Shown here: in pieces, positions 49,173 to 62,769 of the stretch
How positions within the stretch are numbered: position 1 is the stretch's first letter
Layout: every line of letters starts with the position of its first letter
IMG/VR virus record: IMGVR_UViG_3300018430_000021
Coordinates: 160,001-224,000 of that record
Source of the DNA: a virus
Lineage: Duplodnaviria > Caudoviricetes
DNA: 64,000 nucleotides
Direction: 5' to 3' (one strand)
Notes under the pieces: generated by a model
Database searches by the model: none
What the model was told of the DNA's origin: nothing
The model's input: only the letters and a program-made list of their open reading frames with translations
Translations under genes and position numbers: made by a program

Positions 49173-49320
49173 CTGGGTAATCTTGTCCAAGAACGGCTAA
49201 AAGTACGGCACCTACGATAGTTAAAATGCTTGAAGCGGCATAGGATTCGAAAATAACCCATATTGCCCAAGCTACAAAGATAAGTAATAGTGCTGAAATT
49301 AAAGTTATTTTGTGTTTCAT
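49162..49320 (-). CDS. Small two-TM membrane protein (not in ORF track)
   Basis: MKHKITLISALLLIFVAWAIWVIFESYAASSILTIVGAVLLAVLGQDYPDDK. -10 TATATT 7 nt upstream. Confidence 0.6.
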   Translation of the reverse strand: MKHKITLISALLLIFVAWAIWVIFESYAASSILTIVGAVLLAVLGQDYPDDK

Positions 49321-49386
49321 ATATTTAAATATAGCAAACTTTTAAAAAATGTTTATAAATAAGATATATAAGAATTTGGAGTTTTT

Positions 49387-49893: not shown

Positions 49894-50490
49894 CTACTTG
49901 TGTTTGATAGGTTCTTTATAATGATGTACTTCAACAGTTTTCTTAACCGTATCTACGATGAGTAAATCCAGATTGGAAAACTTAAAACCCTTGGAGTTAA
50001 TAACGTCATAAGCACTAATTCCCGGATTTCCGGTCATATAGTGATAGATATAACGAATTAACATTCCATGAGAAATAGCAATTACAGCATTCGTGTTATT
50101 TTCGTGACGAATGTCGTTTCCCATATCATGCAAGACAATCTTGGCACGTTTTTCCATCGTAGAAGCTGGAAGGAAAACTAGCCGATTGAATTCTTCTTCT
50201 GTAATTTCCCAGAACTTTTTGTTTCCGAGAGCCTTGCATTCGAATTCTCCAAGACTCTTGGTCACTTCGCACGGAAAACGGTCAAAAAGAAGTTTTGCCG
50301 TGCTGATGCATCGTTTTGTAGGAGAACTGACAATAACCTTCCTGTCTTCTTCAGGAATAAACTTGCCAACACAATCTTCCCAATCGTCCGGCTTGTCATA
50401 AAGGTTAATATCCGAGTTTTCATATCCGGCAATCATCGAACCAGAGAGGTTTGCCGAAGTCGGTGCATGTCTGATGAAATAGAATTTCAA
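49894..50490 (-). CDS. Histidine phosphatase (phosphoglycerate mutase family)
   Basis: FIRHAPT, SSPTKRCISTA, LGE and ISHG motifs. Confidence 0.88.
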   Translation of the reverse strand: MKFYFIRHAPTSANLSGSMIAGYENSDINLYDKPDDWEDCVGKFIPEEDRKVIVSSPTKRCISTAKLLFDRFPCEVTKSLGEFECKALGNKKFWEITEEEFNRLVFLPASTMEKRAKIVLHDMGNDIRHENNTNAVIAISHGMLIRYIYHYMTGNPGISAYDVINSKGFKFSNLDLLIVDTVKKTVEVHHYKEPIKHK

Positions 50491-50703: not shown

Positions 50704-50880
50704 TTATTTTTCGGTAAAGTGATCGAATATACCGGCTAGAATCGAAATTCCGATAATCAATAAAACGACAAAACCTGCCGCATAGACTGCTGAGGCGAGT
50801 TCACTATAAATTCCGGCTGTTCCTGAACCTGCATTCTGGGCGGCGAGGAGGATTCTCATTGTTTCTACGTCAGTGTTCAT
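50704..50880 (-). CDS. Small membrane protein (not in ORF track)
   Basis: MNTDVETMRILLAAQNAG...FVVLLIIGISILAGIFDHFTEK. -10 TATATT 6 nt upstream. Confidence 0.55.
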   Translation of the reverse strand: MNTDVETMRILLAAQNAGSGTAGIYSELASAVYAAGFVVLLIIGISILAGIFDHFTEK

Positions 50881-50944
50881 ATATTAAATATAGTTTTCGC
50901 CGTAATTTATTCGTAAAAAGCCAGTGATATAAATCACTATAAAG

Positions 50945-51109
50945 TATGTAAGCCGTGAATATGTCCGTGTCACCCTATCCTTAGTAGCCGAGTCCACGAA
51001 TCTCCGCCGGGGTGTAACTACCTCCCCAACTGCTTTATTAACCACGTGAATAATTGCGCTTTCGGCGCCAGCGCCCTATCGGACCACAGACATATTCACG
51101 ACTTACATA
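50945..51109 (-). ncRNA. Structured ncRNA of unknown family (~165 nt)
   Basis: 25-bp terminal stem with G-U pairs only on the minus strand. Own TTGACA-17-TATATT promoter at 51113-51141 and a downstream hairpin plus T-run. Confidence 0.8.
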
Positions 51110-51144
51110 TACAATATAGTAATTTTTTATCCTCTTGTCAACCC

Positions 51145-51912
51145 TTAATCTTCGTCTTCGCCATCAACATTGAAATAATGTTCATAGGCTTCGTCGATGT
51201 TCTTAATGCCGAGATCCTTAAGACTTGGAATAGGAAGTTCATAAAATTCATCCTTCTTCGCGTCATATCCGGTAATCGAAATACCGTCAATCTTGAATCG
51301 GTTGCACGGTTCATAGAAGAAACCATGAAGATAAAATTCCAAAAAATCTTGAAGTGATCCAAGATTATACCATGCGCCATCATAATCAGAAAGGTCATCA
51401 TAGTGTTCAAGAATTGCCAGCTTGATTAGCTCTTCAACGCTTGGCTCGCCATCCTGTTGACTTGAAACCGTAATACAGTCAGCATCACGTTGGTCAATAT
51501 CGAATGTGACGACATAGTAAGATTTCTTCTTCTTGACAGTCTTCTTGAAAGAATCGATACCGGAAGGAATCTTTGATTCATCAAATTCGGGTCTACCCGC
51601 TACAAGCTTGATAGCTGCAATATTTTGAGAGCCGAATCTAAATTTTCTTGTATCATTGCCGTTTTTTACTTCGAACTTCGTACAGTATTCACCAAGACCG
51701 CTTACATATTCTTCATAAACTCTGGTAATTTCGCCGGTAAATGGTTCATTGAGATACTTTGTAATTCCATCACGATTGTAAGTATAAACGGAAACGGTGT
51801 CACCGCGTCTTACCTTTTTAACATCGGGCAAAGATTCGTCGATTTCCGGGGCGACAATTTCTGGTGTTTGTTTTGCAAGGATAGAGTTAAGCATTTCTTC
51901 TTTTGTAGGCAT
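51145..51912 (-). CDS. Hypothetical protein
   Basis: 255 aa, AGGAG SD. Confidence 0.65.
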   Translation of the reverse strand: MPTKEEMLNSILAKQTPEIVAPEIDESLPDVKKVRRGDTVSVYTYNRDGITKYLNEPFTGEITRVYEEYVSGLGEYCTKFEVKNGNDTRKFRFGSQNIAAIKLVAGRPEFDESKIPSGIDSFKKTVKKKKSYYVVTFDIDQRDADCITVSSQQDGEPSVEELIKLAILEHYDDLSDYDGAWYNLGSLQDFLEFYLHGFFYEPCNRFKIDGISITGYDAKKDEFYELPIPSLKDLGIKNIDEAYEHYFNVDGEDED

Positions 51913-51926
51913 TATTTGTTCTCCTA

Positions 51927-52691
51927 TTAGCCAAATCTTTTACGGATTGCCGCTTTTTCTACTTTGGTCTGCTTGATACCAAGTTCTTCGCACTTTTCAG
52001 CATCGTTAATAATACGGTCGTAGATTTGACGAGGCGTAGCGTGCATATCCAAATCGTAATCCTTCGGGTGTGCTTCATAATACGGGATAACGAACTTTTC
52101 CACGAATTCTTTTTTATATAACTTATTAATTTCTTTTTTACGCTGATCAATGACCTTACATGCCTGTGCGCGGGTCATACGTTTTCCGTCGACCCACATT
52201 TCATCCATCGGGTCGTCGACATCCTGCATAAGATACTTTTGAACTTCTTTAAGAATCTTAGGACCGTAATTCAACAGATAGAAATAAGAAAAATAGAAAT
52301 GCTTGTCATAACCAAATTCTACGTTAGCACTCTGAGATTGTGCAACGTTTTCATAAGGAATACCAAGTGCAATAGGACATGATAAGGAAAAACGATAAGA
52401 CTTGTATTCATCGCTCGCCCATAGATGAATACAGGCATCACGCCATGAACCTGTATAACATTCGTTATAAAGAGAATTAGCCGTATGCCAGCCGTGTACT
52501 TTTTTAATTTTTGTTTCCGGTAAAAGCAGATAAGCTTCAGCGCCGATATTCTTGAAAGGACAGGCATCATCAAGATGACAATCGGCATATCGATAGTTGC
52601 TGAATTGCTCTTTATTACCATACCCATGTTTGAGAGGCATTATATCTTTAAAAGCTTCGTTGAGTCTTTCAAATGATTTAGTAAAATCCAT
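51927..52691 (-). CDS. Hypothetical protein
   Basis: 254 aa, AAGGA SD, promoter at 52714-52743. Confidence 0.65.
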   Translation of the reverse strand: MDFTKSFERLNEAFKDIMPLKHGYGNKEQFSNYRYADCHLDDACPFKNIGAEAYLLLPETKIKKVHGWHTANSLYNECYTGSWRDACIHLWASDEYKSYRFSLSCPIALGIPYENVAQSQSANVEFGYDKHFYFSYFYLLNYGPKILKEVQKYLMQDVDDPMDEMWVDGKRMTRAQACKVIDQRKKEINKLYKKEFVEKFVIPYYEAHPKDYDLDMHATPRQIYDRIINDAEKCEELGIKQTKVEKAAIRKRFG

Positions 52692-52745
52692 TATGTTTTT
52701 CCTTTTTTATCATAATATAAAAAAAAGAGTTGACTTTCGTCAACC

Positions 52746-53699
52746 CTATAATGTGTAAGTCTTTGCTGAGCCCTTGCCGGTAAAATATACCATACGGTGT
52801 CGCTTATAGGTATTACCGTCTTTACCTTTCCAGCTCGGAGGATAAATCAACTGTGCAAGAGAAATATCATTCTTACCCTTGTTTATACTATCCTTCATTA
52901 TCCACTTGTCCATAAAATATTCAGAAAAACGTCCTTTATTGAATTTGAGTTCGGCCAGGACTTCTTTCTTGTTTTTCTCGATAGCCTTGGCCAGATAGAA
53001 CAGACTTCCACCGGCCGCATATTCAAGATGCAACATTCCTTTGATAGTAGACTTGTCCATGTGTGAAAGAACTTCAGGATCTATCTGTTTCAGTTTCTTG
53101 ATATAATATCGCTTGATAGTTCGGTCAATGTCCTTAGCGGACGTCTCGTCAAGAATCCACTGCGACCAGACAGATTCCAAATCGGTACGCCCGATAGACC
53201 ACCTGATAATATCTTCGATAGTGCCTTTAAACCTTTCACCGCTGTTCTTGTTTACGATAACGATAGGCTTATCATACTTGATAACTTTCTGCATCATGAA
53301 AGCGGTATTGCCGCCGCCGAAATTAAGCCCGCTCGGATTACTTTTTCCGTCCATCTTGTTGTGATAGAAAGAATTGATATTTCCTTCCTTGATGCCGATG
53401 GAACCGTTATAGATTTCGCTTTCGAAGAAGTTATCGAAAACGTCCTGAGTAATCTTTGTCTGGCCGAGAAGACCTTCACGAGGACGTTCTTTCGTTTCCA
53501 TCATGATACTGTGTTTCTTTTCGGTTTCAGGTACGTAATGATACTTGTATTCGAGCATGCAGTAACAACCGAGGAACATTAGACCTGGTAAGATTTCCAT
53601 GACGAAAAACTTTACAACGGCCCAAGGCTTTCTCTTCAGCCAGTACCAAGTGTAAAGGATTGTACATACCAAAAATAATATTAAGAATGTTATAATCAT
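52746..53699 (-). CDS. Membrane-anchored hypothetical protein
   Basis: Two N-terminal TM segments. Promoter at 53710-53738. Confidence 0.65.
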   Translation of the reverse strand: MIITFLILFLVCTILYTWYWLKRKPWAVVKFFVMEILPGLMFLGCYCMLEYKYHYVPETEKKHSIMMETKERPREGLLGQTKITQDVFDNFFESEIYNGSIGIKEGNINSFYHNKMDGKSNPSGLNFGGGNTAFMMQKVIKYDKPIVIVNKNSGERFKGTIEDIIRWSIGRTDLESVWSQWILDETSAKDIDRTIKRYYIKKLKQIDPEVLSHMDKSTIKGMLHLEYAAGGSLFYLAKAIEKNKKEVLAELKFNKGRFSEYFMDKWIMKDSINKGKNDISLAQLIYPPSWKGKDGNTYKRHRMVYFTGKGSAKTYTL

Positions 53700-53715
53700 T
53701 TCGGCCTATAATATA

Positions 53716-53742
53716 GAAAAAGAGTTGACTTTTGTCAACCCT
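53716..53742 (-). terminator. Terminator of tRNA operon overlapping -35 box of next promoter
   Basis: AGGGTTGACAAAAGTCAACTCTTTTT on the minus strand. Confidence 0.75.
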
Positions 53743-53747
53743 TATAG

Positions 53748-53829
53748 CGGAAGATGAGTGACTCGAACACCCAAGCCATGACGGCGGCAACGTTCGAAAT
53801 TGCTGGCTTACCAATTAGCCTAATCTTCC
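53748..53829 (-). tRNA. tRNA-Ser(CGA)
   Basis: GGAAGAT/ATCTTCC acceptor, GCAAT-TTCGAAC-GTTGC anticodon arm, long V arm, TTCGAGT T loop. Confidence 0.9.
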
Positions 53830-53834
53830 ATTAG

Positions 53835-53926
53835 AAGAGGTGGTAGGATTCGAACCCACGGCCCGGGATGATTACCGGATCACTGGAGTTCAAATCCAGC
53901 GCCATAAACCGCTCGGCCACACCTCC
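53835..53926 (-). tRNA. tRNA-Ser(TGA)
   Basis: GGAGGTG/CACCTCT acceptor, CTGGA-TTTGAAC-TCCAG anticodon arm, long V arm, TTCGAAT T loop. Confidence 0.9.
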
Positions 53927-53935
53927 GAAATTTAG

Positions 53936-54021
53936 CTGAGGATGAAAGACTCGAACTTTCAAGCAGATTACTCCACGGCGGCCTTCCAAGCCACTCCCTT
54001 ACCAATTAGGGTTAATCCTCA
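53936..54021 (-). tRNA. tRNA-Ser(GGA)
   Basis: TGAGGAT/ATCCTCA acceptor, GTGGC-TTGGAAG-GCCGC anticodon arm, long V arm. Confidence 0.9.
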
Positions 54022-54025
54022 AAAT

Positions 54026-54184
54026 GAATACATGCAATGTTTTATACTGACGAGACTCGAACTCGCTTCATACGAATTGTAATTGGCATTTGCAAGAGTA
54101 TCTACCAATAAACGTACCCTTTCCTGATACTTTCGGACGCACGTTCTCTCCTACCTTGATCCAATATAGAGCACGCACATATTC
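54026..54184 (-). ncRNA. tRNA-mimic ncRNA (acceptor-like stem + T arm, large insert, extended closing stem)
   Basis: TATATTG/CAGTATA stem stacked on GCGAG-TTCGAGT-CTCGT. Outer stem GAATATGTGC/GCATGTATTC. Confidence 0.6.
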
Positions 54185-54188
54185 TTAG

Positions 54189-54265
54189 TCGGCAACATAG
54201 GACTTGAACCTACATGTAACCATTTACTCTTTCTACGCCTTATCAGAGCGAGGAGATAGATGCCG
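54189..54265 (-). tRNA. Non-canonical tRNA-Ile(GAT)-like RNA, copy 1
   Basis: Acceptor CGGCATC/GTTGCCG, CGCT-CTGATAA-GGCG anticodon arm, GTAGG-TTCAAGT-CCTAT T arm. No D arm in the normal position. Confidence 0.7.
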
Positions 54266-54276
54266 ATAATATTTAG

Positions 54277-54353
54277 TCGGTATCATAGGAATTGAACCTA
54301 CATGCAACCAATTACCCTTTCGACGCCTTATCAGAGCGAGGGGATAGATACCG
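54277..54353 (-). tRNA. Non-canonical tRNA-Ile(GAT)-like RNA, copy 2
   Basis: Acceptor CGGTATC/GATACCG, same anticodon arm, GTAGG-TTCAATT-CCTAT T arm. Covaries with copy 1. Confidence 0.7.
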
Positions 54354-54420
54354 ATAGATATTGACATTTTTCAGTGATCCAGTTATTGGCTTAGATATGT
54401 CCAATGTCAATAATTTTTAG

Positions 54421-54494
54421 TCCCGGAGGTTGGGCTCGAACCAACGACCTTTTGATTATGATTCAAACGCTCTAACCAGCTGAGCTACTCCGGG
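54421..54494 (-). tRNA. tRNA(CAT): elongator Met or Ile2
   Basis: CCCGGAG/CTCCGGG acceptor, GCTC D stem, TTTGA-ATCATAA-TCAAA anticodon arm, TTCGAGC T loop. Confidence 0.9.
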
Positions 54495-54497
54495 AAA

Positions 54498-54559
54498 ATA
54501 GCGAGAAGTATATATTACGGATTTAAAGTCCGTTTTTATATAGGAACTTCTTTTGCTAT
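54498..54559 (-). ncRNA. Conserved-stem hairpin RNA A
   Basis: ATAGCAAAAGAAGTTCCTAT...ACTTCTCGCTAT with apical ACGGA-CTTTAAA-TCCGT. Confidence 0.55.
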
Positions 54560-54569
54560 TAAACTTTTT

Positions 54570-54656
54570 ATAGCGGGATGTAATCGCCATACGGCTTCGG
54601 ATTTGAACCGATAAGGCATGTGAGCCTATTACCAAAATAGGAACATCCTATGCTAT
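54570..54656 (-). ncRNA. Conserved-stem RNA B with T-arm-like hairpin
   Basis: ATAGCATAGGATGTTCCTAT...ACATCCCGCTAT, containing TCGG-TTCAAAT-CCGA. Confidence 0.55.
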
Positions 54657-54660
54657 GTAG

Positions 54661-54750
54661 AGCTATCTGCAGGATTCGAACCTGCGACGGGGATTTTATC
54701 CACAGCGGAGTTGCAGTCCGCTACCTTCGACCGCTCGGTTACAAGACAGC
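54661..54750 (-). tRNA. tRNA-Cys(GCA) with long variable arm
   Basis: GCTGTCT/AGATAGC acceptor, U73, GCGGA-CTGCAAC-TCCGC anticodon arm, GGAT-AAA-ATCC V arm, GCAGG-TTCGAAT-CCTGC T arm. Confidence 0.85.
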
Positions 54751-54761
54751 TTAATTTTAAA

Positions 54762-54885
54762 TTCCACCGCGTGCTTTTACCGAAGAGCCCGCGAAAACTT
54801 CAGTGGCCTACCACCTTGTTGTTTCATACTAAACACGACCGCTGTTTTAAGGCCGCAGCCTTTTTCGCACAGCGTCACGGCGAAC
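54762..54885 (-). ncRNA. GC-rich structured ncRNA of unknown family
   Basis: Nested stems TTCGCCGTG/CGCGGTGGA and GCGAAAA/TTTTCGC enclosing three hairpins. Confidence 0.5.
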
Positions 54886-54893
54886 TATTTTCG

Positions 54894-54980
54894 TGCTAGC
54901 TAAGGGAGTCGAACCCCTGTTGTTAACTCGTAAGAGACGTGATCTACAGTCACGCGCAATCGCCACTCTGCCAAACTAGC
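54894..54980 (-). tRNA. tRNA-Tyr(GTA)
   Basis: GCTAGTT/AGCTAGC acceptor, CGTGA-CTGTAGA-TCACG anticodon arm, long V arm. Confidence 0.88.
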
Positions 54981-54987
54981 ATTTTAG

Positions 54988-55072
54988 TGACAGCGGTAGG
55001 ACTCGAACCTACGGAAGCTCGTTAGAGCGGGAGGGTTACAGCCTCCAGGAATTGCCGCTATCCGACACTGCC
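54988..55072 (-). tRNA. tRNA-Tyr(GTA)
   Basis: GGCAGTG/CGCTGTC acceptor, GGAGG-CTGTAAC-CCTCC anticodon arm, long V arm. Confidence 0.9.
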
Positions 55073-55151
55073 AAATATCGGGCTTTCACCGATTGCCCGA
55101 ACAAACGATCCTATACAACATACGTCTCAAGGGTCTGTTCGATCATATAAT

Positions 55152-55310
55152 AAAAAAATAAAAGCGTCACTTTTCGGTGACGCCTTGAAACTCTATAAAT
55201 GAGTATTCTTGGTGTCACCCACCAGTCTTAATAATATACATGCCATAGATTGAGGATGTGGAGCATCCGCAAATCGAAGAACATTAATATGTATATAACT
55301 GGTGAGTCAT
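55152..55310 (-). promoter_or_regulatory. Leader-peptide transcription attenuator upstream of tRNA operon
   Basis: SD AAAGGA and ATG at 55310. Helix 1:2 (55307-55297 with 55227-55217), antiterminator 2:3 (55219-55211 with 55184-55176), terminator 3:4 GCGTCAC-CGAAAA-GTGACGC plus U tract. Confidence 0.75.
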
Positions 55311-55380
55311 TGCTTTTATCCTTTTAATATTATATATAAAAAATTTTTTGTGTTTTTTGCTTTTTGTTTTAACGTTGTTA

Positions 55381-55413
55381 AATATAGTAAATTGTGTTGT
55401 ACTTGTAAACCCC
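55381..55413 (-). promoter_or_regulatory. Early sigma70-like promoter of leader/tRNA operon
   Basis: GGGGTTTACA-17 nt-TATATT. The same consensus recurs at 38935, 46048, 51113, 52714, 53710, 58928, 60684, 61664 and 62798. Confidence 0.8.
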
Positions 55414-55415
55414 TT

Positions 55416-55655
55416 TTAGAAAAAATTTTTTTCTTCCGAGTTTTTCCCTCTGATTCGGAACCACAAGAATACGACACTGCCAAGCATTATGACACCATGA
55501 ACCAGACATCCGGTGAAGTGTATTATCGACATGGAACCTTTGTGTGGACCTACAACTTCATAAAGATGTTGGTAGTTAAAAATAAACATACCGACATTGA
55601 ATATTATATAGGCCAATACGCCGAGCATCACATAAATCTTTTCTTCTTTCATCAC
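55416..55655 (-). CDS. Small two-TM membrane protein
   Basis: Two hydrophobic segments. Start overlaps the upstream stop codon. Confidence 0.55.
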   Translation of the reverse strand: MMKEEKIYVMLGVLAYIIFNVGMFIFNYQHLYEVVGPHKGSMSIIHFTGCLVHGVIMLGSVVFLWFRIRGKNSEEKNFF

Positions 55656-56461
55656 CAGCTCTCCTCATAGAGTAATACTTCGCACGGCATGCGATCTTCG
55701 TCTCGCCATTTCTTGAATCGTTCCAAGTATGTTTTGATACTGTCAAAATACCAGTAATCATAATGTAAATTACCGAAGAAAAATCCAGGACGTGACGGAA
55801 GATATTTCGCAGCTGCTTCGTTTTGATCTTGCGTAGCAGTCCAGTTGTTATGCCAGTCTACAGCTTCTGGAATATACCAACCTTCGTCGTTAGTTTCTGG
55901 TTTGTTGAATGTTTCTGCGAACGTCTTGAATTCGCCAGCGGCCATAATCTTTTCCATACGGTCGATAATGTCGTTGACATGCTGAAGAGTCAGAATCGCT
56001 AATCCGTCTTCAAGAATTTTGTTATCATAACCAGATTCAACATGCAGCCTTTCAGGAAACGAGTTATAGACATATTGAAGCATCCAGTTCTTTTTTCTCA
56101 TGTATAAAGGTTGATATTGACCTTCATAAGTAAAGCCAATTTCCTTTTTGAGAGACTCATAACGGTTTTCAACATATTCCCAGCCTGAAAGGTCAATGGG
56201 ATTCATGAAATCCTTAATGTCATAGTTAGGTTCGTTGGTACGGTCAAAGTCATAGTCGATACCTTGTTCATTTTTCTCTTCCATGATTTTACATTGTTCG
56301 TTATACCACTTGTTCCATTTCTTACTGGCTTTGTCAAGCGGCTCGCGATACTTTTCACCATAGGCGTTATAGGCAATATCATATTGCTTACTTGCATCGA
56401 GAAATTCTTCGGCTTTTTCTTTCGACGATACCCGATAAAAATAAATGTCTAAACCCATCAT
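55652..56461 (-). CDS. Conserved phage hypothetical (MGLD...Y.SW family)
   Basis: MGLDIY...YMRKKNW...LPSRPGFFFG...YDYWYF...YEESW. GGAGG SD. Confidence 0.7.
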   Translation of the reverse strand: MMGLDIYFYRVSSKEKAEEFLDASKQYDIAYNAYGEKYREPLDKASKKWNKWYNEQCKIMEEKNEQGIDYDFDRTNEPNYDIKDFMNPIDLSGWEYVENRYESLKKEIGFTYEGQYQPLYMRKKNWMLQYVYNSFPERLHVESGYDNKILEDGLAILTLQHVNDIIDRMEKIMAAGEFKTFAETFNKPETNDEGWYIPEAVDWHNNWTATQDQNEAAAKYLPSRPGFFFGNLHYDYWYFDSIKTYLERFKKWRDEDRMPCEVLLYEESW

Positions 56462-56582
56462 TCCTCCGATGGATATTCGTTTCTTATAGTTTCGAATTCG
56501 CGTTGTTGTTTTTCAACATCTACACGTTCGAACTTTACGCCTTCGCCTAATTCTTCTTTAGTTTCTTCGTCCATAAAACCTC

Positions 56583-57002
56583 CTAGAACATCTGGCCGAC
56601 AGCTTCGATATAGATTTCGAACCAGTATTTATCTTGTTCATCCTTTCTCAGCTTAACGATGAGTTTCGGAGAGATGATTTCCGGATTATCTTCCAATAAG
56701 TACATGTTGACTTCTTCGGTCAATATTCCTGCATCATCGTAATAGGTATTATTTTCCAGATGTTCTGTTTCGTCATATTGCCAGTTACTTTCGTATTTCT
56801 CGATAAGGTCTGTACAGACTTTATATATTACTTCGAGAAGCGAACCTGCGGAAACCGGATCCTCGTCTGTACCTGACCATTGCAGTTTAAGCCTACGGGC
56901 CAAATCAACCGCACTGTCAAGTTCAAAAGCTTCTACGGATTCAATCAATATGTTATGCCATTTATTCCAATCAATAGTCATGTTAACCTCGGTTTTCTCC
57001 AA
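56583..57002 (-). CDS. Acidic hypothetical protein
   Basis: 139-aa ORF in the early operon. Confidence 0.6.
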   Translation of the reverse strand: MEKTEVNMTIDWNKWHNILIESVEAFELDSAVDLARRLKLQWSGTDEDPVSAGSLLEVIYKVCTDLIEKYESNWQYDETEHLENNTYYDDAGILTEEVNMYLLEDNPEIISPKLIVKLRKDEQDKYWFEIYIEAVGQMF

Positions 57003-57382
57003 ACCATATGTCCGTCTTCTTCTTCGACGAACCTTCTTTTTTCATAAAATATTTTGCTTTCTGGTAATGTCGTAAGGTCGATATAATTATGGTCTTCCTT
57101 CAGTCGGTCAATCATTTTTCTTCCGATGGATTCACAACGGTTATTCGGATGTACTTCGAGAGAATATACATGTATATTTTCAGGAGTTCTTTCTTCGAAT
57201 ATCATAATGGCCAACGGATGTGTTACTTCCTGACTGATAAGGAACCTGATAACGATACCTTCTGTATCTATAAATTGTTTAGCACATTTAAAGGATAACG
57301 GAAAACTGTCCGGGTCTATAAGGCCCAGGCATTCCCTAGTAAACGGAAGGTCTTTCAAATATCGCATATTACGGTTTATCAA
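56978..57382 (-). CDS. GNAT-family acetyltransferase
   Basis: HVYSLEVHPNNRCESIGRKMI (motif A) and SKIFYEKRRF (motif B). Confidence 0.8.
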   Translation of the reverse strand: MINRNMRYLKDLPFTRECLGLIDPDSFPLSFKCAKQFIDTEGIVIRFLISQEVTHPLAIMIFEERTPENIHVYSLEVHPNNRCESIGRKMIDRLKEDHNYIDLTTLPESKIFYEKRRFVEEEDGHMVWRKPRLT

Positions 57383-57489
57383 ACGGACGTGTAAAGAAGT
57401 CCATTATCCAGCTAAATATGATAAAAATAACTACCATGAGAAATCCGATAATAGCTACCGGAAACATGGCAACATCTACAAGAAATTCT

Positions 57490-57702
57490 TTAACTTTTGG
57501 CATTTAATTCTTCCCTACATTGCTTGAGTACCTTTTCGAATTCGCCGGACTGTATTGCTTCGTGGAGAATGTGGCTTACAAGGTCTTCAACGGTAATACC
57601 TTTTTCATCAGCTTCTTTTTGAAGCTTTTCATAAAGTTCATCAGGAAGGTCAAACGACAATACATCTGTGTTTTCATTATTCTGCATCTGGATTTTCCTC
57701 AT
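57490..57702 (-). CDS. Ribbon-helix-helix DNA-binding protein
   Basis: LSFDLPDELYEKLQKEADEKGITVEDLVSHIL. Confidence 0.7.
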   Translation of the reverse strand: MRKIQMQNNENTDVLSFDLPDELYEKLQKEADEKGITVEDLVSHILHEAIQSGEFEKVLKQCREELNAKS

Positions 57703-58039
57703 CTATCGGCATTAGAACGCCGGTTCGCATGTTTTGATAAAATTTTTTACTGTAAGCTTTTCTTACTTTAGAATAATATTCTGAATCATGTTGTGCGTAT
57801 GGATTTGCCCAAACAAGTAAATACCGAACATTCTGTAGGTCTCTACGACATACAGGACATTCGGTAATAGGAGTTATACTTCCATTAACATCGAAATACC
57901 ATGGGTTTTCGTCTGTACCACGATAGAATAGGCATTTTTTAGCTTTGGTGTCATCGCGTTTGAACGTTTTAAACCAAAGCCTTGTAGTGGCATCCCATGG
58001 GCCAGACTTATATTGTATGGTTTCGCAATACTCACACAT
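57677..58039 (-). CDS. Zinc-binding hypothetical protein
   Basis: MCEYC...CPVCRRDL. Confidence 0.65.
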   Translation of the reverse strand: MCEYCETIQYKSGPWDATTRLWFKTFKRDDTKAKKCLFYRGTDENPWYFDVNGSITPITECPVCRRDLQNVRYLLVWANPYAQHDSEYYSKVRKAYSKKFYQNMRTGVLMPIDEENPDAE

Positions 58040-58040
58040 C

Positions 58041-58904
58041 TTATCCCCATTTTTCTACTTCTTTCCGAATATCTTCATTGGCTAAGGCATGACTTATATA
58101 AGTACGAACCTGCCTGAAGAACTCCTGCTCTGTAACAGGTCGTTCTTGTTTGTGACCATAAACTAAATCGTCAAGTTTTTCGGAAAACGCTTCCAGAGAC
58201 AATTTTTTCGGGTATTTGCGTTTTCTAAACCAGTCATCGATGTCTTTTCTGGTAACATCGGTCGGGATAGCGATTTTTTCACGTTTCATCCAGTCTTCGT
58301 GATGGTCGTTGAAATCCCAGTCGATAACACGGTCAAACCCGAAGTTGTTGAGCATTCCGTCCATGGTTTTCGGACCAAGGTTACGGAGAACTTCCATAAT
58401 TTCGGCAGCATGTTCAAGAGTAAGATACTGGTCGAAATATTTGAATTTATTCATCAAACGAATACGGTAGAGCTGGTCACGTTTTGCTTCCAGTTTATCG
58501 TAGTTTTCTGAACTAAAGTCATAAAGTTTTCCATACGGCTGTTCGTCGAAAATGATGTCGTTTACTCGAAGCAATACTTCTTCGACGTCCATATAACGAG
58601 CGAGAGCTTTAAGGAAAGCTTTGGTTTCACGTGCCGTTTCTTCAAATTCGCGGTCACGCAAAGAACCAATAACAGTAATCACACCGTTATCGTAACCGTC
58701 AGCGTTGTCTGAAGAATACGACGACGCATGCTGGGTCGCATAAACGGAAGTTTCGATTGGACCTTCAGAACCGGTAATATTAAATCCACGTTTTTCCATA
58801 TCACGAAGAGCCCAGTTGACATAATCAACAAGACGATCTTTGCGAACCGTTTCAAACGGAAGGCGAATTCTGACAATACCACTTATATACGTCCAATGAC
58901 TCAT
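58041..58904 (-). CDS. Hypothetical phage protein
   Basis: MSHWT...GSEG...GSLRDR. Promoter at 58928-58956. Confidence 0.7.
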   Translation of the reverse strand: MSHWTYISGIVRIRLPFETVRKDRLVDYVNWALRDMEKRGFNITGSEGPIETSVYATQHASSYSSDNADGYDNGVITVIGSLRDREFEETARETKAFLKALARYMDVEEVLLRVNDIIFDEQPYGKLYDFSSENYDKLEAKRDQLYRIRLMNKFKYFDQYLTLEHAAEIMEVLRNLGPKTMDGMLNNFGFDRVIDWDFNDHHEDWMKREKIAIPTDVTRKDIDDWFRKRKYPKKLSLEAFSEKLDDLVYGHKQERPVTEQEFFRQVRTYISHALANEDIRKEVEKWG

Positions 58905-58960
58905 TATATTTCCTTTTGTTTTAGCAAAATATAATAAAAACTATTCGGTTTGTAAACCCT

Positions 58961-59287
58961 TTAGAATGTAGCGTTAGCAAATTCGTTAAATAATTTAAGT
59001 TTTTCAAATGTTACGAATACAATATCGCCATTATTATATTTGAACATTATATAAGAACAGATTTCATTATTATTCTGAGATAAAGCGACATACGGATCTG
59101 CTGCAACCGGAATAGCAGGACTTTCTGGAAATGCCTGAAATAAATTGAAGTTATCTACCTTAGCTATTAAATAATGCGAGCCAGAACTAAGGTCTTTTGG
59201 TTCACGAGACAATACACTAAATACAGTAAACAAATCCGGAGTCATATAAATGCACATGACTTTAGAATAGTCAATGTGACTATCCAC
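58961..59287 (-). CDS. Hypothetical protein
   Basis: 108-aa ORF. Confidence 0.45.
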   Translation of the reverse strand: MDSHIDYSKVMCIYMTPDLFTVFSVLSREPKDLSSGSHYLIAKVDNFNLFQAFPESPAIPVAADPYVALSQNNNEICSYIMFKYNNGDIVFVTFEKLKLFNEFANATF

Positions 59288-59404
59288 GAATTTAAGAATA
59301 CCGTTAAATCTTTCGCTACTTCACCGAGATTTCTTTTTCTTGAAAATCTTATTAAACCACGATTTTTCCGGATCTTTATACTTATATCGAATAATTTTCA
59401 TCAT

Positions 59405-59647
59405 TTACTCCTGTGAGCGGTGCTTAGGGTAGTCAAGATACGGCGGAAAATCTTTGCAAGAAGGATGAGAAGTATCAATCCACTCGCTGTTTTTATTCGG
59501 TTGTATAACCGGCTGTTTATCGTTAGAGTTATTTTTCTCATCAAATACCCCGAGGCGTTGAAGTTCTACAAATTCTGCAGGAGTGCAGGTAATTACTGTA
59601 TTATTTCCAATCATTACTGTCATATTAAATATCCCATTTTGTAACAA
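59405..59647 (-). CDS. Hypothetical protein
   Basis: Short ORF in the early operon. Confidence 0.5.
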   Translation of the reverse strand: MLQNGIFNMTVMIGNNTVITCTPAEFVELQRLGVFDEKNNSNDKQPVIQPNKNSEWIDTSHPSCKDFPPYLDYPKHRSQE

Positions 59648-60119
59648 TGTCGTTAAAATCGTTTTTAGCGGTTTCGATTAATTCCATTGCTTTTTCTTTT
59701 GTGATAATTTCATCGATTTGGTCTTCACGTATATCATATTGTTCATCTTCAAGATAACTTACGTAAACAGAACCCCAATCATTTGCTGTAAGGTGTGAGA
59801 ATTGCCGGTAGTCATCGTCAAACTTAATATGAACACCTTTGACTTTACATCTGAAAAAACCTCTACCGGCAAATACAATTTCTATGATATGGATAATCTC
59901 CATATCCTTTTTGTTTACTGTACTAAAAGCCTTGCGGACATTACGTCCATATTTGAGCAGATACGTATCTTTATACTTGTTTTCAAGCTTAGCCTTACAC
60001 TTGAATGCCTTTGACTCTTTAACTTGCTGGAGGCACTTATCTGCGTACTCACGGAGCTCTCTGAGGTCATCCTCGTTTGTAATAGCTTTAATCTTGGTTT
60101 TTAAATCGTTTACCGCCAT
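59625..60119 (-). CDS. Hypothetical protein
   Basis: GAGGA SD, 164 aa. Confidence 0.65.
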   Translation of the reverse strand: MAVNDLKTKIKAITNEDDLRELREYADKCLQQVKESKAFKCKAKLENKYKDTYLLKYGRNVRKAFSTVNKKDMEIIHIIEIVFAGRGFFRCKVKGVHIKFDDDYRQFSHLTANDWGSVYVSYLEDEQYDIREDQIDEIITKEKAMELIETAKNDFNDIVTKWDI

Positions 60120-60331
60120 AAATCCTCTAATTCAGATAAAAATAACTTACGGTCGCAGTTAATTTCGAGAATACAAGGTTCTGAGTCAACCTTATGTCCG
60201 TCATGATTATTCAACGGGGTAATACCGCTAACGGCTCGGCACTCCTTGCCCCAAGCGGTATTAATCCCGATAGCAATCTGTGGATTCCCTTTAATTTTCT
60301 GTAATTCAGCGATAAGTTCTTCTTTATTCAT
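60110..60331 (-). CDS. Hypothetical protein
   Basis: MNKEELIAELQK start, typical of small phage proteins. Confidence 0.55.
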   Translation of the reverse strand: MNKEELIAELQKIKGNPQIAIGINTAWGKECRAVSGITPLNNHDGHKVDSEPCILEINCDRKLFLSELEDLWR

Positions 60332-60332
60332 A

Positions 60333-60656
60333 TTAAATCGTACTCCAATGCTGAACAAGACCGATAATCATGAGCACCAGCATCGGAGAACAATAGAAGA
60401 AATGAACTACGCCCTTAGCCGGATTGCCGGTAAGAATATTGATAAAGCTTCCGATAATGCCGAGTAACATACCAGTTGCCCAGATGACACCGATAACGAA
60501 CAGCGTCATTCCGCCGAAATAAAGCGCGGCGACCACGGAACCGATGGTGATGAGACTCGCGACAAATCCGGTAGCAGAACCTTTTTCACCGAAGAGCTCA
60601 CGGAGCATACCGAGAATTTGAACACCGAGAATGATATAGAGAAGAACTGTAATCAT
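60333..60656 (-). CDS. Four-TM membrane protein
   Basis: Hydrophobic throughout. Promoter at 60684-60712, AAGGA SD. Confidence 0.7.
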   Translation of the reverse strand: MITVLLYIILGVQILGMLRELFGEKGSATGFVASLITIGSVVAALYFGGMTLFVIGVIWATGMLLGIIGSFINILTGNPAKGVVHFFYCSPMLVLMIIGLVQHWSTI

Positions 60657-60768
60657 GTTTTTTATTCCTTTTTGTTTGATTAAAATATAGTAAAAGTAAA
60701 CCAGGTTGTAAACCCTAAATTAGGTCTTTAACCTGGTAATTATTATTTAACGACCCAAAATAGGGACA

Positions 60769-61635
60769 TTAGACTGAACGGAACAGCCAATGTAGAATCT
60801 TCGGAATTCGATATAGATAACCGCGATTGACTGTCGGGCGGGTAAAGTATTCCACCTCGTTGCTTTTCAGAGTTGAATCAGTAGAATGCGTAACGTATTC
60901 GAAACCGTCGTTCTTGGCATACTTCTTCGTAAAAGAACTCTTGGTTTCAAACGTCGGAAATTGCGTAGACGTATGACATGCAATCTGATTACCCCGTGTA
61001 TCATATTCACGAGTAGTAATCATAAGGCAATGATGGAACGTATTATAATGAATTTCCTTGATTGCGTTGTTACCGGTATCTTCATAAACATATTCGTCAG
61101 TTGTATACCAGGTTCGGCCACGCTGCGTAGTTGTAGTCTTGTTATACAAATAACGACCGTATTCATCATATAATGTAATTGTATGGTCAACGAATTCGTT
61201 GTTATCACCATAACGCTGGGTTTTTTCTTCAACACGAGCGCCAGCATGACCTGCAAAATCGGTTTCTTTTTCGGTATAAGTACCGTCTTCATTAAAGTTA
61301 CGATACTTTACAACATTGCCTTCGTCATTGTAGAATGCAATAAAATGACAATCAAGACGACGCTTGCCATTGACATCGTACTTATAGCAGAATCGTTCAA
61401 CCGTATGAGTACCGTCTTCGGCATACGTAAGCTTATCAATATTGTCGATTTTACCGTTGGACGTATCGATAGTCATGATACGTCTGAATTTTTCATCATA
61501 AAGATTTCGTTCGACGCGAAGACGACCGACGAGATGATGCTTACGGCGAGTTACGAAATGTGAACCCGGAAGAAACCATTGGGTTTCAATGGGAGTCAGC
61601 TTAGATACACAGAGATTCTGGAGAAATTTAAACAT
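60769..61635 (-). CDS. YD/RHS-like repeat protein
   Basis: YDVNGK, YNDEGN, YDEYGR and YDTRGN repeats. Promoter at 61664-61692. Confidence 0.65.
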   Translation of the reverse strand: MFKFLQNLCVSKLTPIETQWFLPGSHFVTRRKHHLVGRLRVERNLYDEKFRRIMTIDTSNGKIDNIDKLTYAEDGTHTVERFCYKYDVNGKRRLDCHFIAFYNDEGNVVKYRNFNEDGTYTEKETDFAGHAGARVEEKTQRYGDNNEFVDHTITLYDEYGRYLYNKTTTTQRGRTWYTTDEYVYEDTGNNAIKEIHYNTFHHCLMITTREYDTRGNQIACHTSTQFPTFETKSSFTKKYAKNDGFEYVTHSTDSTLKSNEVEYFTRPTVNRGYLYRIPKILHWLFRSV

Positions 61636-61698
61636 TGTATTGTTCCTTTTGGTTTATGCGTACAATATAGTAAAAGGATTGACTAGTGTCAACCCTTT

Positions 61699-62028
61699 TT
61701 ATTCAAGAACAGATAGAATCTCGGTCATTTCTTCATCATGCATCTTTTTAAGGTTTACTTCCCATTCTTTTAATATCATGTCTTCTGCTAATGAACGGGC
61801 TGTATATTTCTTAAACATTTCGCAATTATATTTGGTTGGATTGACGTCCATTCGTATAATGCTATAAATGACACCGCCTTTACATTCAAAATATGCAGGA
61901 ATATCCATATTTAGAATGTTATTATGAAGCCATAACTTTTTAGGTTTTGGACCCATGAAGCTATGTATCATTTCTTCAAGCGTATCTATTTCATCGGAAT
62001 GCTTTACTTTCCATTCATGTGTCGTCAT
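61699..62028 (-). CDS. Hypothetical protein
   Basis: 109 aa, overlapping the upstream stop codon. Confidence 0.55.
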   Translation of the reverse strand: MTTHEWKVKHSDEIDTLEEMIHSFMGPKPKKLWLHNNILNMDIPAYFECKGGVIYSIIRMDVNPTKYNCEMFKKYTARSLAEDMILKEWEVNLKKMHDEEMTEILSVLE

Positions 62029-62546
62029 GAGTTAATCAATGTCTCCACATCTTTAATGACACTTTTGAGGTCATGCTTTTTCTTTTTAGGTTCTTTTTCG
62101 GTATTGTCGAGTAACCAGTACGGAAGCTTGTAGAAGAAAAAGACAAAGATATTTCCAATCATAAACACGACATTAGTAACTAACCATCCGGTAAGCCTTA
62201 TAGTCATGTCAATAATAAGTGTCGGGTACATAAGTTGAGACGCTAAGAAATAAATCTTTCCAAGTCGTTTCTTTACTGGATTTTTTGATGTTTCCATACT
62301 TGTACCCAAGAAAAAGAATACAATATGTGCAGCAAAGTATACTACGGCAATAATACTTAAAATTCCCGGATGTGCAGGCCAGATGCGTTCTGGAACAGTA
62401 AGAATATATGGGGCATTATACCTAGCAATAGTATTTGCTAGCAATACGAGACCCAAATATACTGCCGTAATACCCCAGATAAAAGGTGGGCTGATAAAAT
62501 TACGGCTAAACGCCTCATTGATGTCTTTGAGTTTCATGTAGTACAT
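62025..62546 (-). CDS. Membrane protein
   Basis: Three to four TM segments. Confidence 0.65.
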   Translation of the reverse strand: MYYMKLKDINEAFSRNFISPPFIWGITAVYLGLVLLANTIARYNAPYILTVPERIWPAHPGILSIIAVVYFAAHIVFFFLGTSMETSKNPVKKRLGKIYFLASQLMYPTLIIDMTIRLTGWLVTNVVFMIGNIFVFFFYKLPYWLLDNTEKEPKKKKHDLKSVIKDVETLINS

Positions 62547-62562
62547 TTAGCCGTTCCTTTTA

Positions 62563-62769
62563 TTAGTCCTGGCAATCGCGGTTGATGATATACTTTTCCT
62601 TAATCTCGTCGGGTGCGTCGACGAGTTCAACCTTGATCTTGGTCTTATCGATTCCCTTGTCGGCCAGACCCAAAAGGGCAACAGCCTTGAGTTCGTCGTA
62701 CTCTTCATCCGTCGCGTTATCCGGAACGGTGAATTCGCCAACATTGTAAGTAATCTTGAATTTCTTCAT
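62563..62769 (-). CDS. Hypothetical protein
   Basis: AGGAG SD. Promoter at 62798-62826. Confidence 0.6.
   Translation of the reverse strand: MKKFKITYNVGEFTVPDNATDEEYDELKAVALLGLADKGIDKTKIKVELVDAPDEIKEKYIINRDCQD

What the first reader, a model, noticed from the sequence alone, without database searches (positions are those of the whole stretch)
50915..51145. Stand-alone ~165-nt ncRNA with 25-bp terminal stem, own promoter and a pseudoknot
Seen: a consensus promoter (TTGACA-17-TATATT) fires right at the stem start. TATGTAAGTCGTGAATATGTCTGTG pairs with CACGGACATATTCACGGCTTACATA (two G-U pairs, minus strand only). The interior has hairpins GTCC/GGGC, GCGC-CGAAA-GCGC, TTATT/AATAA and GTTGGGG/CCCCGGC, and the last loop GGTAGTT can pair with downstream GGCTACT. 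A hairpin plus T-run follows. No credible ORF. The GAATATGT stem motif recurs in the 54026-54184 RNA. Inference: an early phage RNA such as a 6S-like or retron-ncRNA-like decoy, a protein sponge or a ribozyme.
Basis: partly seen in the sequence, partly recalled or inferred. Interest (0 to 1): 0.7.

Follow-up and report, generated by a model that had tools for sequence, protein, structure and literature searches.

The report
New structured RNA gene in jumbo phages
A group of giant T4-like phages from ruminant and other animal guts carries a small gene that makes a folded, non-coding RNA of a previously undescribed family; the RNA is real and under selection, but what it does is still unknown.

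Summary
On the minus strand a phage promoter (51141-51113) is followed by a 25-bp terminal stem (51109-51085 with 50969-50945), a 115-nt core and a weak hairpin plus U-run (50938-50915).

I found 11 further versions in gut and rumen metagenomes, always directly after the same 255-aa gene. Compensatory changes support the terminal stem, a GNRA hairpin and a 7-bp hairpin: 20 pairs changed on both sides, 0 of 500 shuffles reach this, and slid controls give 2-5. G-U pairs and an 18 kcal/mol strand asymmetry place the structure on the promoter strand.

- It is a genuine, single-copy ncRNA gene.
- It has no Rfam match in three versions.
- It is absent from close relatives, where the same promoter drives a protein gene.

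Not supported:
- The proposed pseudoknot is not kept in the second subtype.
- The GAATATGT recurrence is at chance level.
- The 25-bp stem is specific to one subtype (about 11 irregular bp in the other).
- The 6S, retron and Y RNA analogies fail. No reverse transcriptase, Ro or RtcB gene lies on the contig.

The core is very conserved yet folds no better than shuffled sequence. I read it as an early trans-acting protein-binding scaffold or decoy (about 0.4).

The parts
51113..51145 (-). Promoter: AGGG upstream element, -35 TTGACA (51141-51136), 17-nt spacer and -10 TATATT (51118-51113). The transcription start is inferred at about 51106 +/- 2, inside the first bases of the stem.
   Evidence: 11 of 12 consensus; class of 6 copies, 0 expected. 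The same promoter is kept after the 255-aa gene in all homologues, including one without the RNA. The start site is inferred, not measured.
51085..51109 (-). P1, 5' arm of the terminal stem (25 nt in this subtype).
   Evidence: (I21). In helix 1, 12 of 25 pairs change on both sides across homologues. The L071 version keeps 25 perfect pairs with many compensatory changes. In type B only about 11 irregular pairs remain.
50970..51084 (-). Conserved 115-nt core, made of:
- hairpin GUCC/GGGC (51084-51073)
- GNRA-type hairpin P3 (51068-51056)
- segment S2 CACG (51048-51045)
- hairpin P5, a 7-bp stem with an 11-nt loop ending GUUACA (51030-51006)
- segment S3 CGUG (50998-50995)
- invariant GGACUCG (50995-50989)
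- the first 11 nt of the invariant GGAUAGGGUGAC (50980-50969; its last base, C50969, is the first base of the P1 3' arm).
   Evidence: Alignments A1 and A2 list the invariant columns. P3 has 2 and P5 has 4 pairs changed on both sides, and 99-100% of cells pair. S1-S4 change in concert. The core GC is 0.50 against 0.387 for the genome. The core alone is no more stable than shuffles.
50945..50969 (-). P1, 3' arm of the terminal stem. Its first four bases, CACG (50969-50966), are segment S4.
50915..50938 (-). 3' hairpin AGUGAU-UUAU-AUCACU followed by GGC and U5, the presumed weak intrinsic terminator. The GUGAU...AUCA hairpin is also kept in type B, where a separate 14-bp terminator follows.
   Evidence: It is not flagged by the terminator scan because it has fewer than 3 G-C pairs. 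Termination is inferred.
50704..50880 (-). Gene for a 58-aa single-pass membrane protein. It follows the RNA in every RNA-bearing locus. A -10-like CTATATT lies 6 nt before its ATG (50893-50878) and there is no Shine-Dalgarno sequence.
   Evidence: tblastn, alignment A4 and motif enrichment of 8 against 1.36 expected. A distant homologue occurs without the RNA and with a normal Shine-Dalgarno sequence (L127).
51145..51912 (-). Upstream 255-aa gene, the synteny anchor. The RNA unit starts at its stop codon. Residues 30-110 fold like the ribosomal protein bL19 barrel.
   Evidence: 62 homologues, loci, structure model with pLDDT 82.8, and fold searches (Z 8-9.5 for the 10 best rows, all bL19).

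Best explanation
This is a stand-alone gene for a structured non-coding RNA of a new, narrowly distributed family. The RNA is about 165 nt, or about 190 nt with its 3' hairpin. It is carried by one clade of T4-like jumbo phages of ruminant and other animal guts.

Shown:
- A phage sigma-70-type promoter of a recurrent class sits at the stop codon of the preceding gene.
- The RNA folds with its two ends paired into a terminal stem whose length is free to vary (25 bp here, about 11 bp in the sister subtype).
- The stem closes a 115-nt core holding a GNRA hairpin and a 7-bp hairpin with a conserved 11-nt loop.
- The core also has long invariant stretches that are not explained by ordinary helices: GGUCC, GGACUCG, GUUACAC, GGAUAGGGUGAC, and two copies of RRUARGGYG.
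- The unit lies in a variable accessory region. Close relatives use the same promoter for a protein gene instead.

Inferred:
- The RNA is made early in infection and is released as its own transcript by the 3' hairpin and U-run.
- It acts in trans. The terminal stem serves as a stabilising clamp, and the invariant, weakly paired core is a specific binding surface for a host or phage protein.
- It would therefore be a scaffold or decoy used in host takeover or counter-defence, within the RNA-rich tRNA island of the genome.

My confidence that it is a real, selected ncRNA gene is about 0.9. The confidence figure given for this explanation is for the whole statement including the trans-acting protein-binding mechanism.
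For: - Anatomy and strand.
- Promoter class. It is also conserved in a 424-kb relative.
- Homologues: 11 further versions, always directly after the homologous 255-aa gene.
- Covariation: 88% of cells pair and 20 pairs change on both sides. 0 of 500 shuffles reach this, and slid controls give 2-5. RNAalifold finds 15 compensatory pairs.
- Copy number: one per genome or locus.
- Composition: GC 0.50 against 0.387 for the genome.
- Conservation among strains: a metatranscriptome-library contig over 50921-51144 has 1 difference in 224 nt. Flanking contigs have 10-20 differences per roughly 170-250 nt (table 8).
- Core stability: the core is invariant in sequence but not thermodynamically special. 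This fits recognition by a partner or a tertiary fold rather than plain helices.
- Independence from the downstream gene: that gene has the -10-plus-ATG arrangement seen at other genes.
- Accessory nature: RNA-less relatives keep the promoter, and the RNA is absent from G002, L073, L084-86, L092-97 and L107-110.
Against: - No transcript ends or abundance were measured. The RNA-library data are contigs that cover the flanks as well, one contig includes the -35 box, and DNA carry-over cannot be excluded.
- No binding partner is identified.
- The strongly conserved unpaired core would suit a ligand-binding or catalytic RNA equally well.
- The RNA is always followed by the small membrane-protein gene in the clade that has it, which would also fit a cis-acting role.
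- Only about 3 independent lineages (window/L078, L071/L076, type B) carry the covariation, so the inner architecture is unresolved.
Confidence: 0.4

Rival explanations
1. It is an RNA that works by its own fold, as a ligand-binding, catalytic or self-associating (homodimer or oligomer) RNA. It would be a small counterpart of the RNA-only assemblies formed by ROOL and GOLLD, which are also phage RNAs near tRNA islands.
For: - Covarying helices are combined with long invariant joining strands and a GNRA tetraloop hairpin (GAGA, GGGA, or C+GAAA), the pattern of aptamers and ribozymes.
- Four 4-nt segments S1-S4 change in concert in all three lineages: UGUG/CACG/CGUG/CACG, then CGCG four times, then CACG/CGUG/CACG/CGU. 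Both S1:S4+S2:S3 and S1:S2+S3:S4 pairings stay possible.
- S2 lies in a palindrome in each lineage (CACGUG, CGCG, ACGU). This would allow alternative or intermolecular pairing.
- ROOL and GOLLD set the precedent (PMC12286853).
Against: - No ribozyme or riboswitch family matches.
- The concerted S1-S4 change rests on three lineages only.
- Nothing was tested biochemically.
- The RNA is a quarter of the size of ROOL.
Confidence: 0.2
2. It is a cis-acting 5' leader, an attenuator-type regulator of the small membrane-protein gene. The structured RNA would decide whether transcription passes the hairpin and U-run into the ORF.
For: - The order promoter, structured RNA, terminator, ORF is kept in every RNA-bearing locus.
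- The strong promoter upstream of the RNA is the only consensus promoter for that ORF.
- The S1-S4 segments are alternately complementary, as in attenuators.
Against: - A 25-bp terminal stem would lock the fold.
- I found no antiterminator pairing between the core and the terminator in either subtype (inspection).
- The ORF has a -10-like box 6 nt before its ATG, like other genes of this phage, so it probably has its own start.
- Type B has a strong 14-bp terminator directly before the ATG.
- The RNA core is far more conserved than the ORF, which is 33-45% identical between subtypes.
- The ORF family exists without the RNA (L127).
Confidence: 0.15
3. It is a Y RNA-like or tRNA-mimic RNA that tethers or decoys an RNA-repair or quality-control factor (Ro60/Rsr, RtcB, an anticodon nuclease).
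For: - The paired ends with a GGUCCGA-like sequence at the top of the stem recall Y RNA. That resemblance is from my own memory and is only a lead.
- The gene lies in a tRNA island.
- RtcB lies about 2.5 kb downstream in type B loci.
- YrlA RNAs occur in phages (PMC4201824).
Against: - No Y_RNA or YrlA hit at E <= 10.
- No TROVE gene on this contig, in the complete relative G002 or in four other related records.
- No RtcB gene on this contig.
- GGUCC has no partner on the 3' strand of the stem.
- The T-loop-like GAGAUUCGUGGACUC lacks A58, and its U54 becomes G in L075 and L082.
- There is no D arm.
Confidence: 0.05
4. It is a 6S-like RNA polymerase decoy.
For: It has a similar size, a long closing stem and an early promoter.
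Against: - No 6S family hit.
- The interior is a multi-branch core with conserved sequence, not a central bubble flanked by a second long stem.
- The long stem is not kept in type B.
Confidence: 0.03
5. It is a DNA-level element: an inverted-repeat mobile element (MITE), a cruciform, or a retron msr-msd template.
For: It has 25-bp terminal inverted repeats, and the plus strand also folds with z = -5.9. It is present or absent among relatives.
Against: - It is single-copy.
- G-U pairs fit one strand only, with an 18 kcal/mol asymmetry.
- Internal hairpins covary.
- The repeat arms themselves diverge by compensatory change, and in type B they are short.
- The promoter and terminator frame it.
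- No reverse transcriptase gene is on the contig.
Confidence: 0.02

Closest known systems
ROOL and GOLLD RNAs (Rfam; PMC12286853)
   Same: They are phage or prophage-encoded structured ncRNAs of unknown function, often beside tRNA islands. ROOL was found in cow rumen. They have covarying helices and conserved joining strands.
   Different: They are 4-5 times larger (about 600-800 nt) and form RNA-only cages. No sequence or structure match was found to this RNA. Self-association of this RNA is untested.
Phage T4 species 1 and species 2 RNAs (rnaC, rnaD)
   Same: They are small stable RNAs (139 and 119 nt) of unknown function in the tRNA region of a T4-type phage.
   Different: They lie at the end of the tRNA cluster with no annotated promoter of their own. 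rnaC carries a canonical T arm. The covariance model gives only noise on the T4 region (7.6 bits, E 0.25).
Bacterial and phage Y RNAs (YrlA; PMC4201824)
   Same: They are about 100-130-nt RNAs whose ends pair into a long stem that closes a structured module. They are found in some phages and are linked to RNA repair genes.
   Different: YrlA is defined by tRNA-like D and T arms and by a neighbouring Ro60 gene. This RNA has neither.
OLE RNA with its membrane protein OapA
   Same: It is a structured ncRNA gene with a conserved neighbouring gene for a small membrane protein. This comparison rests on my own knowledge and the OLE references listed in PMC12286853.
   Different: OLE is about 600 nt and bacterial. 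Here the membrane protein is acidic and lacks an obvious RNA-binding surface. It also occurs without the RNA.
6S RNA
   Same: It has a similar length and a long terminal helix, and it is a trans-acting protein decoy.
   Different: There is no central-bubble architecture and no Rfam match. The helix length is not conserved.

Membership tests
Any Rfam 15 family | Covariance-model score at or near the gathering threshold | tested here: not met
   Across the whole window only tRNAs pass. For the window, L070 and L071 versions at E <= 10, the best hits score 15-21 bits against gathering scores of 39-80 and are all unrelated families.
Y RNA / YrlA | tRNA-like D and T stem-loops with tRNA-invariant bases | tested here: not met
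   The only T-loop-like stretch lacks A58, and its U54 is G in two members. Its bases covary with another segment instead. There is no D arm. The definition comes from PMC4201824.
Y RNA / YrlA | A Ro60 (TROVE) gene encoded nearby | tested here: not met
   PF05731 is absent from the 291-kb contig (70% complete) and from five related records, including a complete 424-kb genome. The controls were positive. A host-encoded Ro60 cannot be excluded.
6S RNA | A rod of closing stem, large central bubble and terminal stem | tested here: not met
   The consensus structure is multi-branched, with two or three internal hairpins. No 6S hit was found.
6S RNA | Binds the sigma-70 holoenzyme and templates pRNA | not testable with these tools
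   This needs biochemistry.
Retron ncRNA (msr-msd) | A linked reverse transcriptase gene | tested here: not met
   PF00078 is absent from the contig and the controls were positive. The neighbouring genes are a 255-aa bL19-like-domain protein and a 58-aa membrane protein.
MITE / DNA inverted-repeat element | Multiple copies with terminal inverted repeats and target-site duplications | tested here: not met
   There is one copy in 291 kb. The arms evolve by compensatory change with strand-specific G-U pairs.
Riboswitch / attenuator leader | Mutually exclusive terminator and antiterminator pairing tied to the conserved core | tested here: inconclusive
   The alternately complementary S1-S4 segments exist. 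I found no pairing that competes with the terminator in either subtype. The 25-bp clamp argues against switching.
ROOL / GOLLD | Match to the family model; large multi-pseudoknot fold | tested here: not met
   No hit was found. The RNA is about 165 nt.
T4 rnaC / rnaD | Sequence or structure similarity to the T4 RNAs | tested here: not met
   Model R1 on the T4 tRNA region gives only noise. No blastn match was found in 50,697 phage records.
Structured ncRNA gene (generic) | Own promoter and terminator, no ORF, and helices kept by compensatory change on the transcribed strand | tested here: met
Structured ncRNA gene (generic) | A discrete transcript is detected | tested here: inconclusive
   Six RNA-library runs hold the stretch. 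The four that I laid cover it, but as contigs that also cover the flanks. Strand, ends and level are not readable.

The most novel reading that the evidence does not exclude
The RNA is a new class of compact, self-organising phage RNA. Its four co-evolving segments S1-S4 would let it switch between two junction topologies, or pair between molecules. It would then be a miniature relative in kind of the RNA-only ROOL and GOLLD assemblies of phage tRNA islands. Alternatively it is a new ligand-sensing or catalytic fold used during host takeover.
Probability: 0.15. Interest if true: 0.75.

Novelty: new variant of a known kind. Interest (0 to 1): 0.5.

Why it matters
Giant phages carry islands of tRNAs and odd RNAs whose purpose is largely unknown. 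ROOL, GOLLD and the T4 species 1 and 2 RNAs have resisted explanation for years.

This is a small RNA with clean boundaries from the same setting:
- it has its own promoter
- its helices are supported by covariation
- its core is extremely conserved
- it has natural presence/absence variants and two subtypes that differ in stem length

That makes it more tractable for probing, pull-downs and structure work than the very large RNAs. It could show what such phage RNAs bind. If it proves to be a decoy for a host defence or RNA-processing factor, it would add an RNA-based counter-defence tool. If it folds or assembles on its own, it would be a new RNA fold.

Tried and rejected
- **Short-motif scans.** Exact-motif scans with GTGGTCCGATAGGG, the 5' degenerate motif, the GTTACACCC...GGACTCG motif and the 3' motif in bacterial and archaeal genomes gave only chance matches (coding DNA or tRNA genes). 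nhmmer and the covariance model rejected them all.
- **GenBank phages.** blastn and megablast against GenBank phages found nothing.
- **Viral contigs with the neighbour protein.** Searching viral contigs with the single 255-aa protein found nothing.
- **Relatives found through the UvsW helicase.** This gave relatives. The only complete one, G002 (424 kb), shares the promoter class but not the RNA. The other records are 6-21% complete fragments.
- **RNA-less homologue loci.** L073, L084-86, L092-97 and L107-110 carry the 255-aa gene but not the RNA.
- **RNA libraries.** Contigs of four metatranscriptomic runs cover the whole 1.7-kb stretch. They give no ends, strand or level, so expression is neither shown nor refuted.
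- **Type I toxin-antitoxin idea.** I saw no conserved complementarity by eye between the RNA and the 5' part of the small ORF in both subtypes. The script machine was lost, so no duplex search was run.
- **RNA plus membrane protein as an obligate pair.** This is weakened by L127, which has the protein without the RNA.
- **phi29 pRNA-like packaging RNA.** There is no Rfam match, and these are T4-type phages by their UvsW gene. That T4-type phages package DNA without an RNA is from my own knowledge.
- **ESM Atlas search of the 255-aa protein.** Feature scores were below 0.8 and not informative.
Full report
**Where it lies.** The window is bases 160001-224000 of a 291-kb viral contig, about 70% complete. 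The contig carries a UvsW helicase, an anaerobic ribonucleotide reductase and seven tRNA genes. UvsW places it among T4-type phages at about 36% identity to cultured ones. Relatives include a complete 424-kb genome. The stretch is held by many runs of animal feces, bovine gut and sheep gut. Genes in this part of the window run on the minus strand.

**Check of the observation.** Read on the minus strand, the region contains, in order:
- the stop codon of a 255-aa gene (51147-51145)
- AGGG-TTGACA (51141-51136), a 17-nt spacer and TATATT (51118-51113)
- a stem whose 5' arm is 51109-51085
- 115 nt of core
- the 3' arm at 50969-50945
- a 6-bp AU-rich hairpin (50938-50923), then GGC and U5 (50919-50915)

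The repeat finder gives the two 25-nt arms at 92% DNA complementarity (I21). The two exceptions are G-U pairs on the minus strand. The minus strand folds at -76.1 kcal/mol (z = -5.96) and the plus strand at -57.8 kcal/mol. The promoter scores 11 of 12. It is one of six AGGGTTKACA-N16-18-TATATT sites in the window, all on the minus strand, against none expected. The inferred start, about 7 nt after the -10 box, falls in the first bases of the stem.

Four qualifications apply.
- The 3' hairpin is too weak for the terminator scan.
- GAATATGT is a common word, with 9 hits against 4.5 expected.
- The covariance model finds no second copy in the window, so the RNA at 54026-54184 is unrelated.
- All of the thermodynamic signal is in the terminal stem. 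The core with only 4-5 closing pairs has z between +0.9 and -0.2 in five versions.

**Relatives.** GenBank phages hold nothing similar, and short-motif scans gave only chance matches. The upstream 255-aa protein has 62 homologues at 43-98% identity. Fetching their contigs showed the same RNA directly after the gene in L070, L071, L072, L082, L087 and L088-91. A conserved 3' motif found L074 and L075 in IMG/VR, and L076-L078 and L080 in metagenomes.

This gives twelve distinct sequences in two subtypes (A2).
- Type A comprises the window, L078, L071 and L076. It has the 25-bp stem.
- Type B comprises eight sequences. It has about 11 irregular pairs, a roughly 8-10-nt 5' tail and an added strong 14-bp terminator.

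The RNA is absent in several settings:
- loci whose 255-aa protein is 85-86% identical (L086, L092-97)
- more distant loci (L073, L084, L085, L107-110)
- the complete 424-kb relative

In L086 the same promoter follows the stop codon but drives a protein gene. The unit is thus an accessory insert in a variable, early-promoter region. It is single-copy. The motif scan of 185,579 prokaryotic species gave only chance hits.

**Structure.** RNAalifold predicts 41 pairs, 15 with compensatory changes. I counted a 44-pair model on A2.

| Measure | Result |
|---|---|
| Cells paired | 88.2% (shuffled 78.4 +/- 0.8) |
| Pairs with changes on both sides | 20 (shuffled 13.0 +/- 2.2; 0 of 500 shuffles reach it) |
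| Same count in slid controls | 2-5 |

Three helices are well supported.
- The terminal stem has 12 pairs with double changes.
- Hairpin P3 reads GCGC-GAGA-GCGC in L078, GCCA-GGGA-UGGC or GCUA-GGGA-UAGC elsewhere, and has a one-base-larger loop in the window. It is a GNRA-type tetraloop hairpin.
- Hairpin P5 is a 7-bp stem with 4 double changes. Its 11-nt loop ends in the invariant GUUACA.

The invariant stretches GGUCC, GGACUCG and GGAUAGGGUGAC carry no covariation, so nothing can be said for or against their pairings. Candidates include GGUCC:GGACU and GUUAC:GUGAC.

One unusual feature stands out. Four 4-nt segments change in concert in the three lineages.

| Lineage | S1 | S2 | S3 | S4 |
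|---|---|---|---|---|
| Window | UGUG | CACG | CGUG | CACG |
| L071 | CGCG | CGCG | CGCG | CGCG |
| Type B | CACG | CGUG | CACG | CGU |

As a result, S1:S4 with S2:S3 and S1:S2 with S3:S4 are equally well kept. That may mean alternative conformations or intermolecular pairing. With only three lineages it may also be coincidence.

**RNA or DNA, coding or not.** Four things place the selected structure on the transcribed strand as RNA: the strand-specific G-U pairs, the 18 kcal/mol asymmetry, covariation in internal hairpins and the promoter/terminator frame. Indels of 1-2 nt between versions and compensatory rather than synonymous change rule out the 53-aa ORF that overlaps it. GC is 0.50 against 0.387 for the genome. 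Among strains in RNA-library contigs, 50921-51144 shows 1 difference in 224 nt. Neighbouring coding contigs show 10-20 per roughly 170-250 nt. Those contigs do not prove transcription. They also cover the flanks, and one includes the -35 box.

**Context.**
- Upstream are tRNA arrays and three proteins with no Pfam family, of 317, 254 and 255 aa.
- The 255-aa protein models well (pLDDT 82.8). Its residues 30-110 resemble the ribosomal protein bL19 barrel: the ten best VIA rows are all bL19 at Z 8.1-9.5, with Foldseek E about 3e-3. This is a lead for RNA binding. The protein also occurs without the RNA.
- Downstream is a 58-74-aa single-pass membrane protein. It follows the RNA in every RNA-bearing locus and is only 33-45% identical between subtypes.
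- That ORF has no Shine-Dalgarno sequence. It has CTATATT 6 nt before the ATG, an arrangement enriched in the window at 8 against 1.36 expected. It therefore probably starts its own, leaderless-type transcript.
- A distant homologue of that protein sits in an ordinary coupled operon without the RNA (L127).
- RtcB lies about 2.5 kb downstream in type B loci. It is not on this contig.

**Comparison with known RNAs.** No Rfam 15 family matches any of three versions, even at E <= 10.
- Y RNA/YrlA is defined by tRNA-like D and T arms and a neighbouring Ro60 gene (PMC4201824). Neither is present.
- There is no 6S-like rod.
- There is no reverse transcriptase for a retron.
- T4 rnaC and rnaD share only the setting. 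rnaC has a canonical T arm, and the model scores noise on T4.
- ROOL and GOLLD are the nearest in kind, being orphan phage RNAs near tRNA islands, and ROOL comes from rumen (PMC12286853). They are unrelated in size and sequence.

**Reading.** That this is a real, selected, independently promoted ncRNA gene of a new narrow family I hold at about 0.9. For mechanism I commit, at about 0.4, to the following. It is an early trans-acting RNA whose variable-length terminal stem is a stabilising clamp. Its invariant, weakly paired core is a binding surface for a protein, making it a scaffold or decoy in host takeover or counter-defence.

The rivals are:
- an RNA that works by its own fold, through ligand binding, catalysis or self-association (0.2)
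- a cis leader of the membrane-protein gene (0.15)
- a Y RNA or tRNA mimic (0.05)
- a 6S-like RNA (0.03)
- a DNA-level element or retron (0.02)

Shown: the anatomy, the promoter class, homologues, covariation, single copy, accessory distribution and the absence of known-family features. Inferred: the transcription start and stop, early timing, trans action and protein binding.

**Limits.** The script machine was lost, so no duplex search or R-scape-type statistics were run. The covariation rests on about three lineages. The host is unknown.

Noticed in passing
window 7867-7883 (+), 38925-38941 (-), 49318-49334 (-), 50878-50893 (-): A -10-like CTATATT box lies 5-8 nt before an ATG start codon. 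There are 8 such sites against 1.36 expected, and 0 of 100 shuffles reach this. Several have no Shine-Dalgarno sequence, which suggests this phage uses leaderless mRNAs.
   Followed up: partly
window 51113-62830, minus strand: A promoter class AGGGTTKACA-N16-18-TATATT has six exact copies against none expected. At 53743-53720 and 52747-52726 the -35 box sits inside a terminator-like hairpin, giving back-to-back terminator-promoter units. The class is also present in the 424-kb relative.
   Followed up: partly
window 51145-51912 (-): The 255-aa protein has no Pfam or PHROG family. Its residues 30-110 fold like the ribosomal protein bL19 beta-barrel (VIA Z 8.1-9.5 for the ten best rows, all bL19). 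Invariant DQRDAD and CNRFK motifs lie in the C-terminal half. It may be an RNA- or ribosome-binding phage protein.
   Followed up: partly
window 54185-54268 and 54273-54356 (-): These are tandem 84-nt repeats, 89% alike, with T-arm-like 3' parts inside the tRNA array. Neither ARAGORN nor Rfam calls them (D4, 15).
   Followed up: no
L070 7460-8650; L089 3505-3681; ENA and Logan places: Type B relatives carry an RtcB RNA ligase gene a few kb downstream of the RNA, after a second tRNA array. The window's contig has no RtcB.
   Followed up: partly
L071 4428-5621 (-): A TnpB-type gene (OrfB_IS605, Cas12f1-like_TNB) lies about 1.6 kb downstream of the RNA in the L071 phage. It is not present in the window.
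   Followed up: no
L127 1501-1674: A 41%-identical homologue of the small membrane protein lies in a 69-kb viral contig. It is translationally coupled to the preceding gene, has a normal Shine-Dalgarno sequence and has no RNA upstream.
   Followed up: yes
window vs L071: 50860-50940 vs L071 2800-2880: The stretch from the 3' hairpin to the start of the small ORF is letter-for-letter identical between the window and L071. The terminal stem differs at many positions, and the upstream protein is only 58% identical. This suggests a recombination junction at or in the RNA gene.
   Followed up: no
window 49894-50490 (-): A histidine phosphatase superfamily protein (His_Phos_1, E 3.5e-14) lies two genes downstream of the RNA. 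It is syntenic in L071.
   Followed up: no
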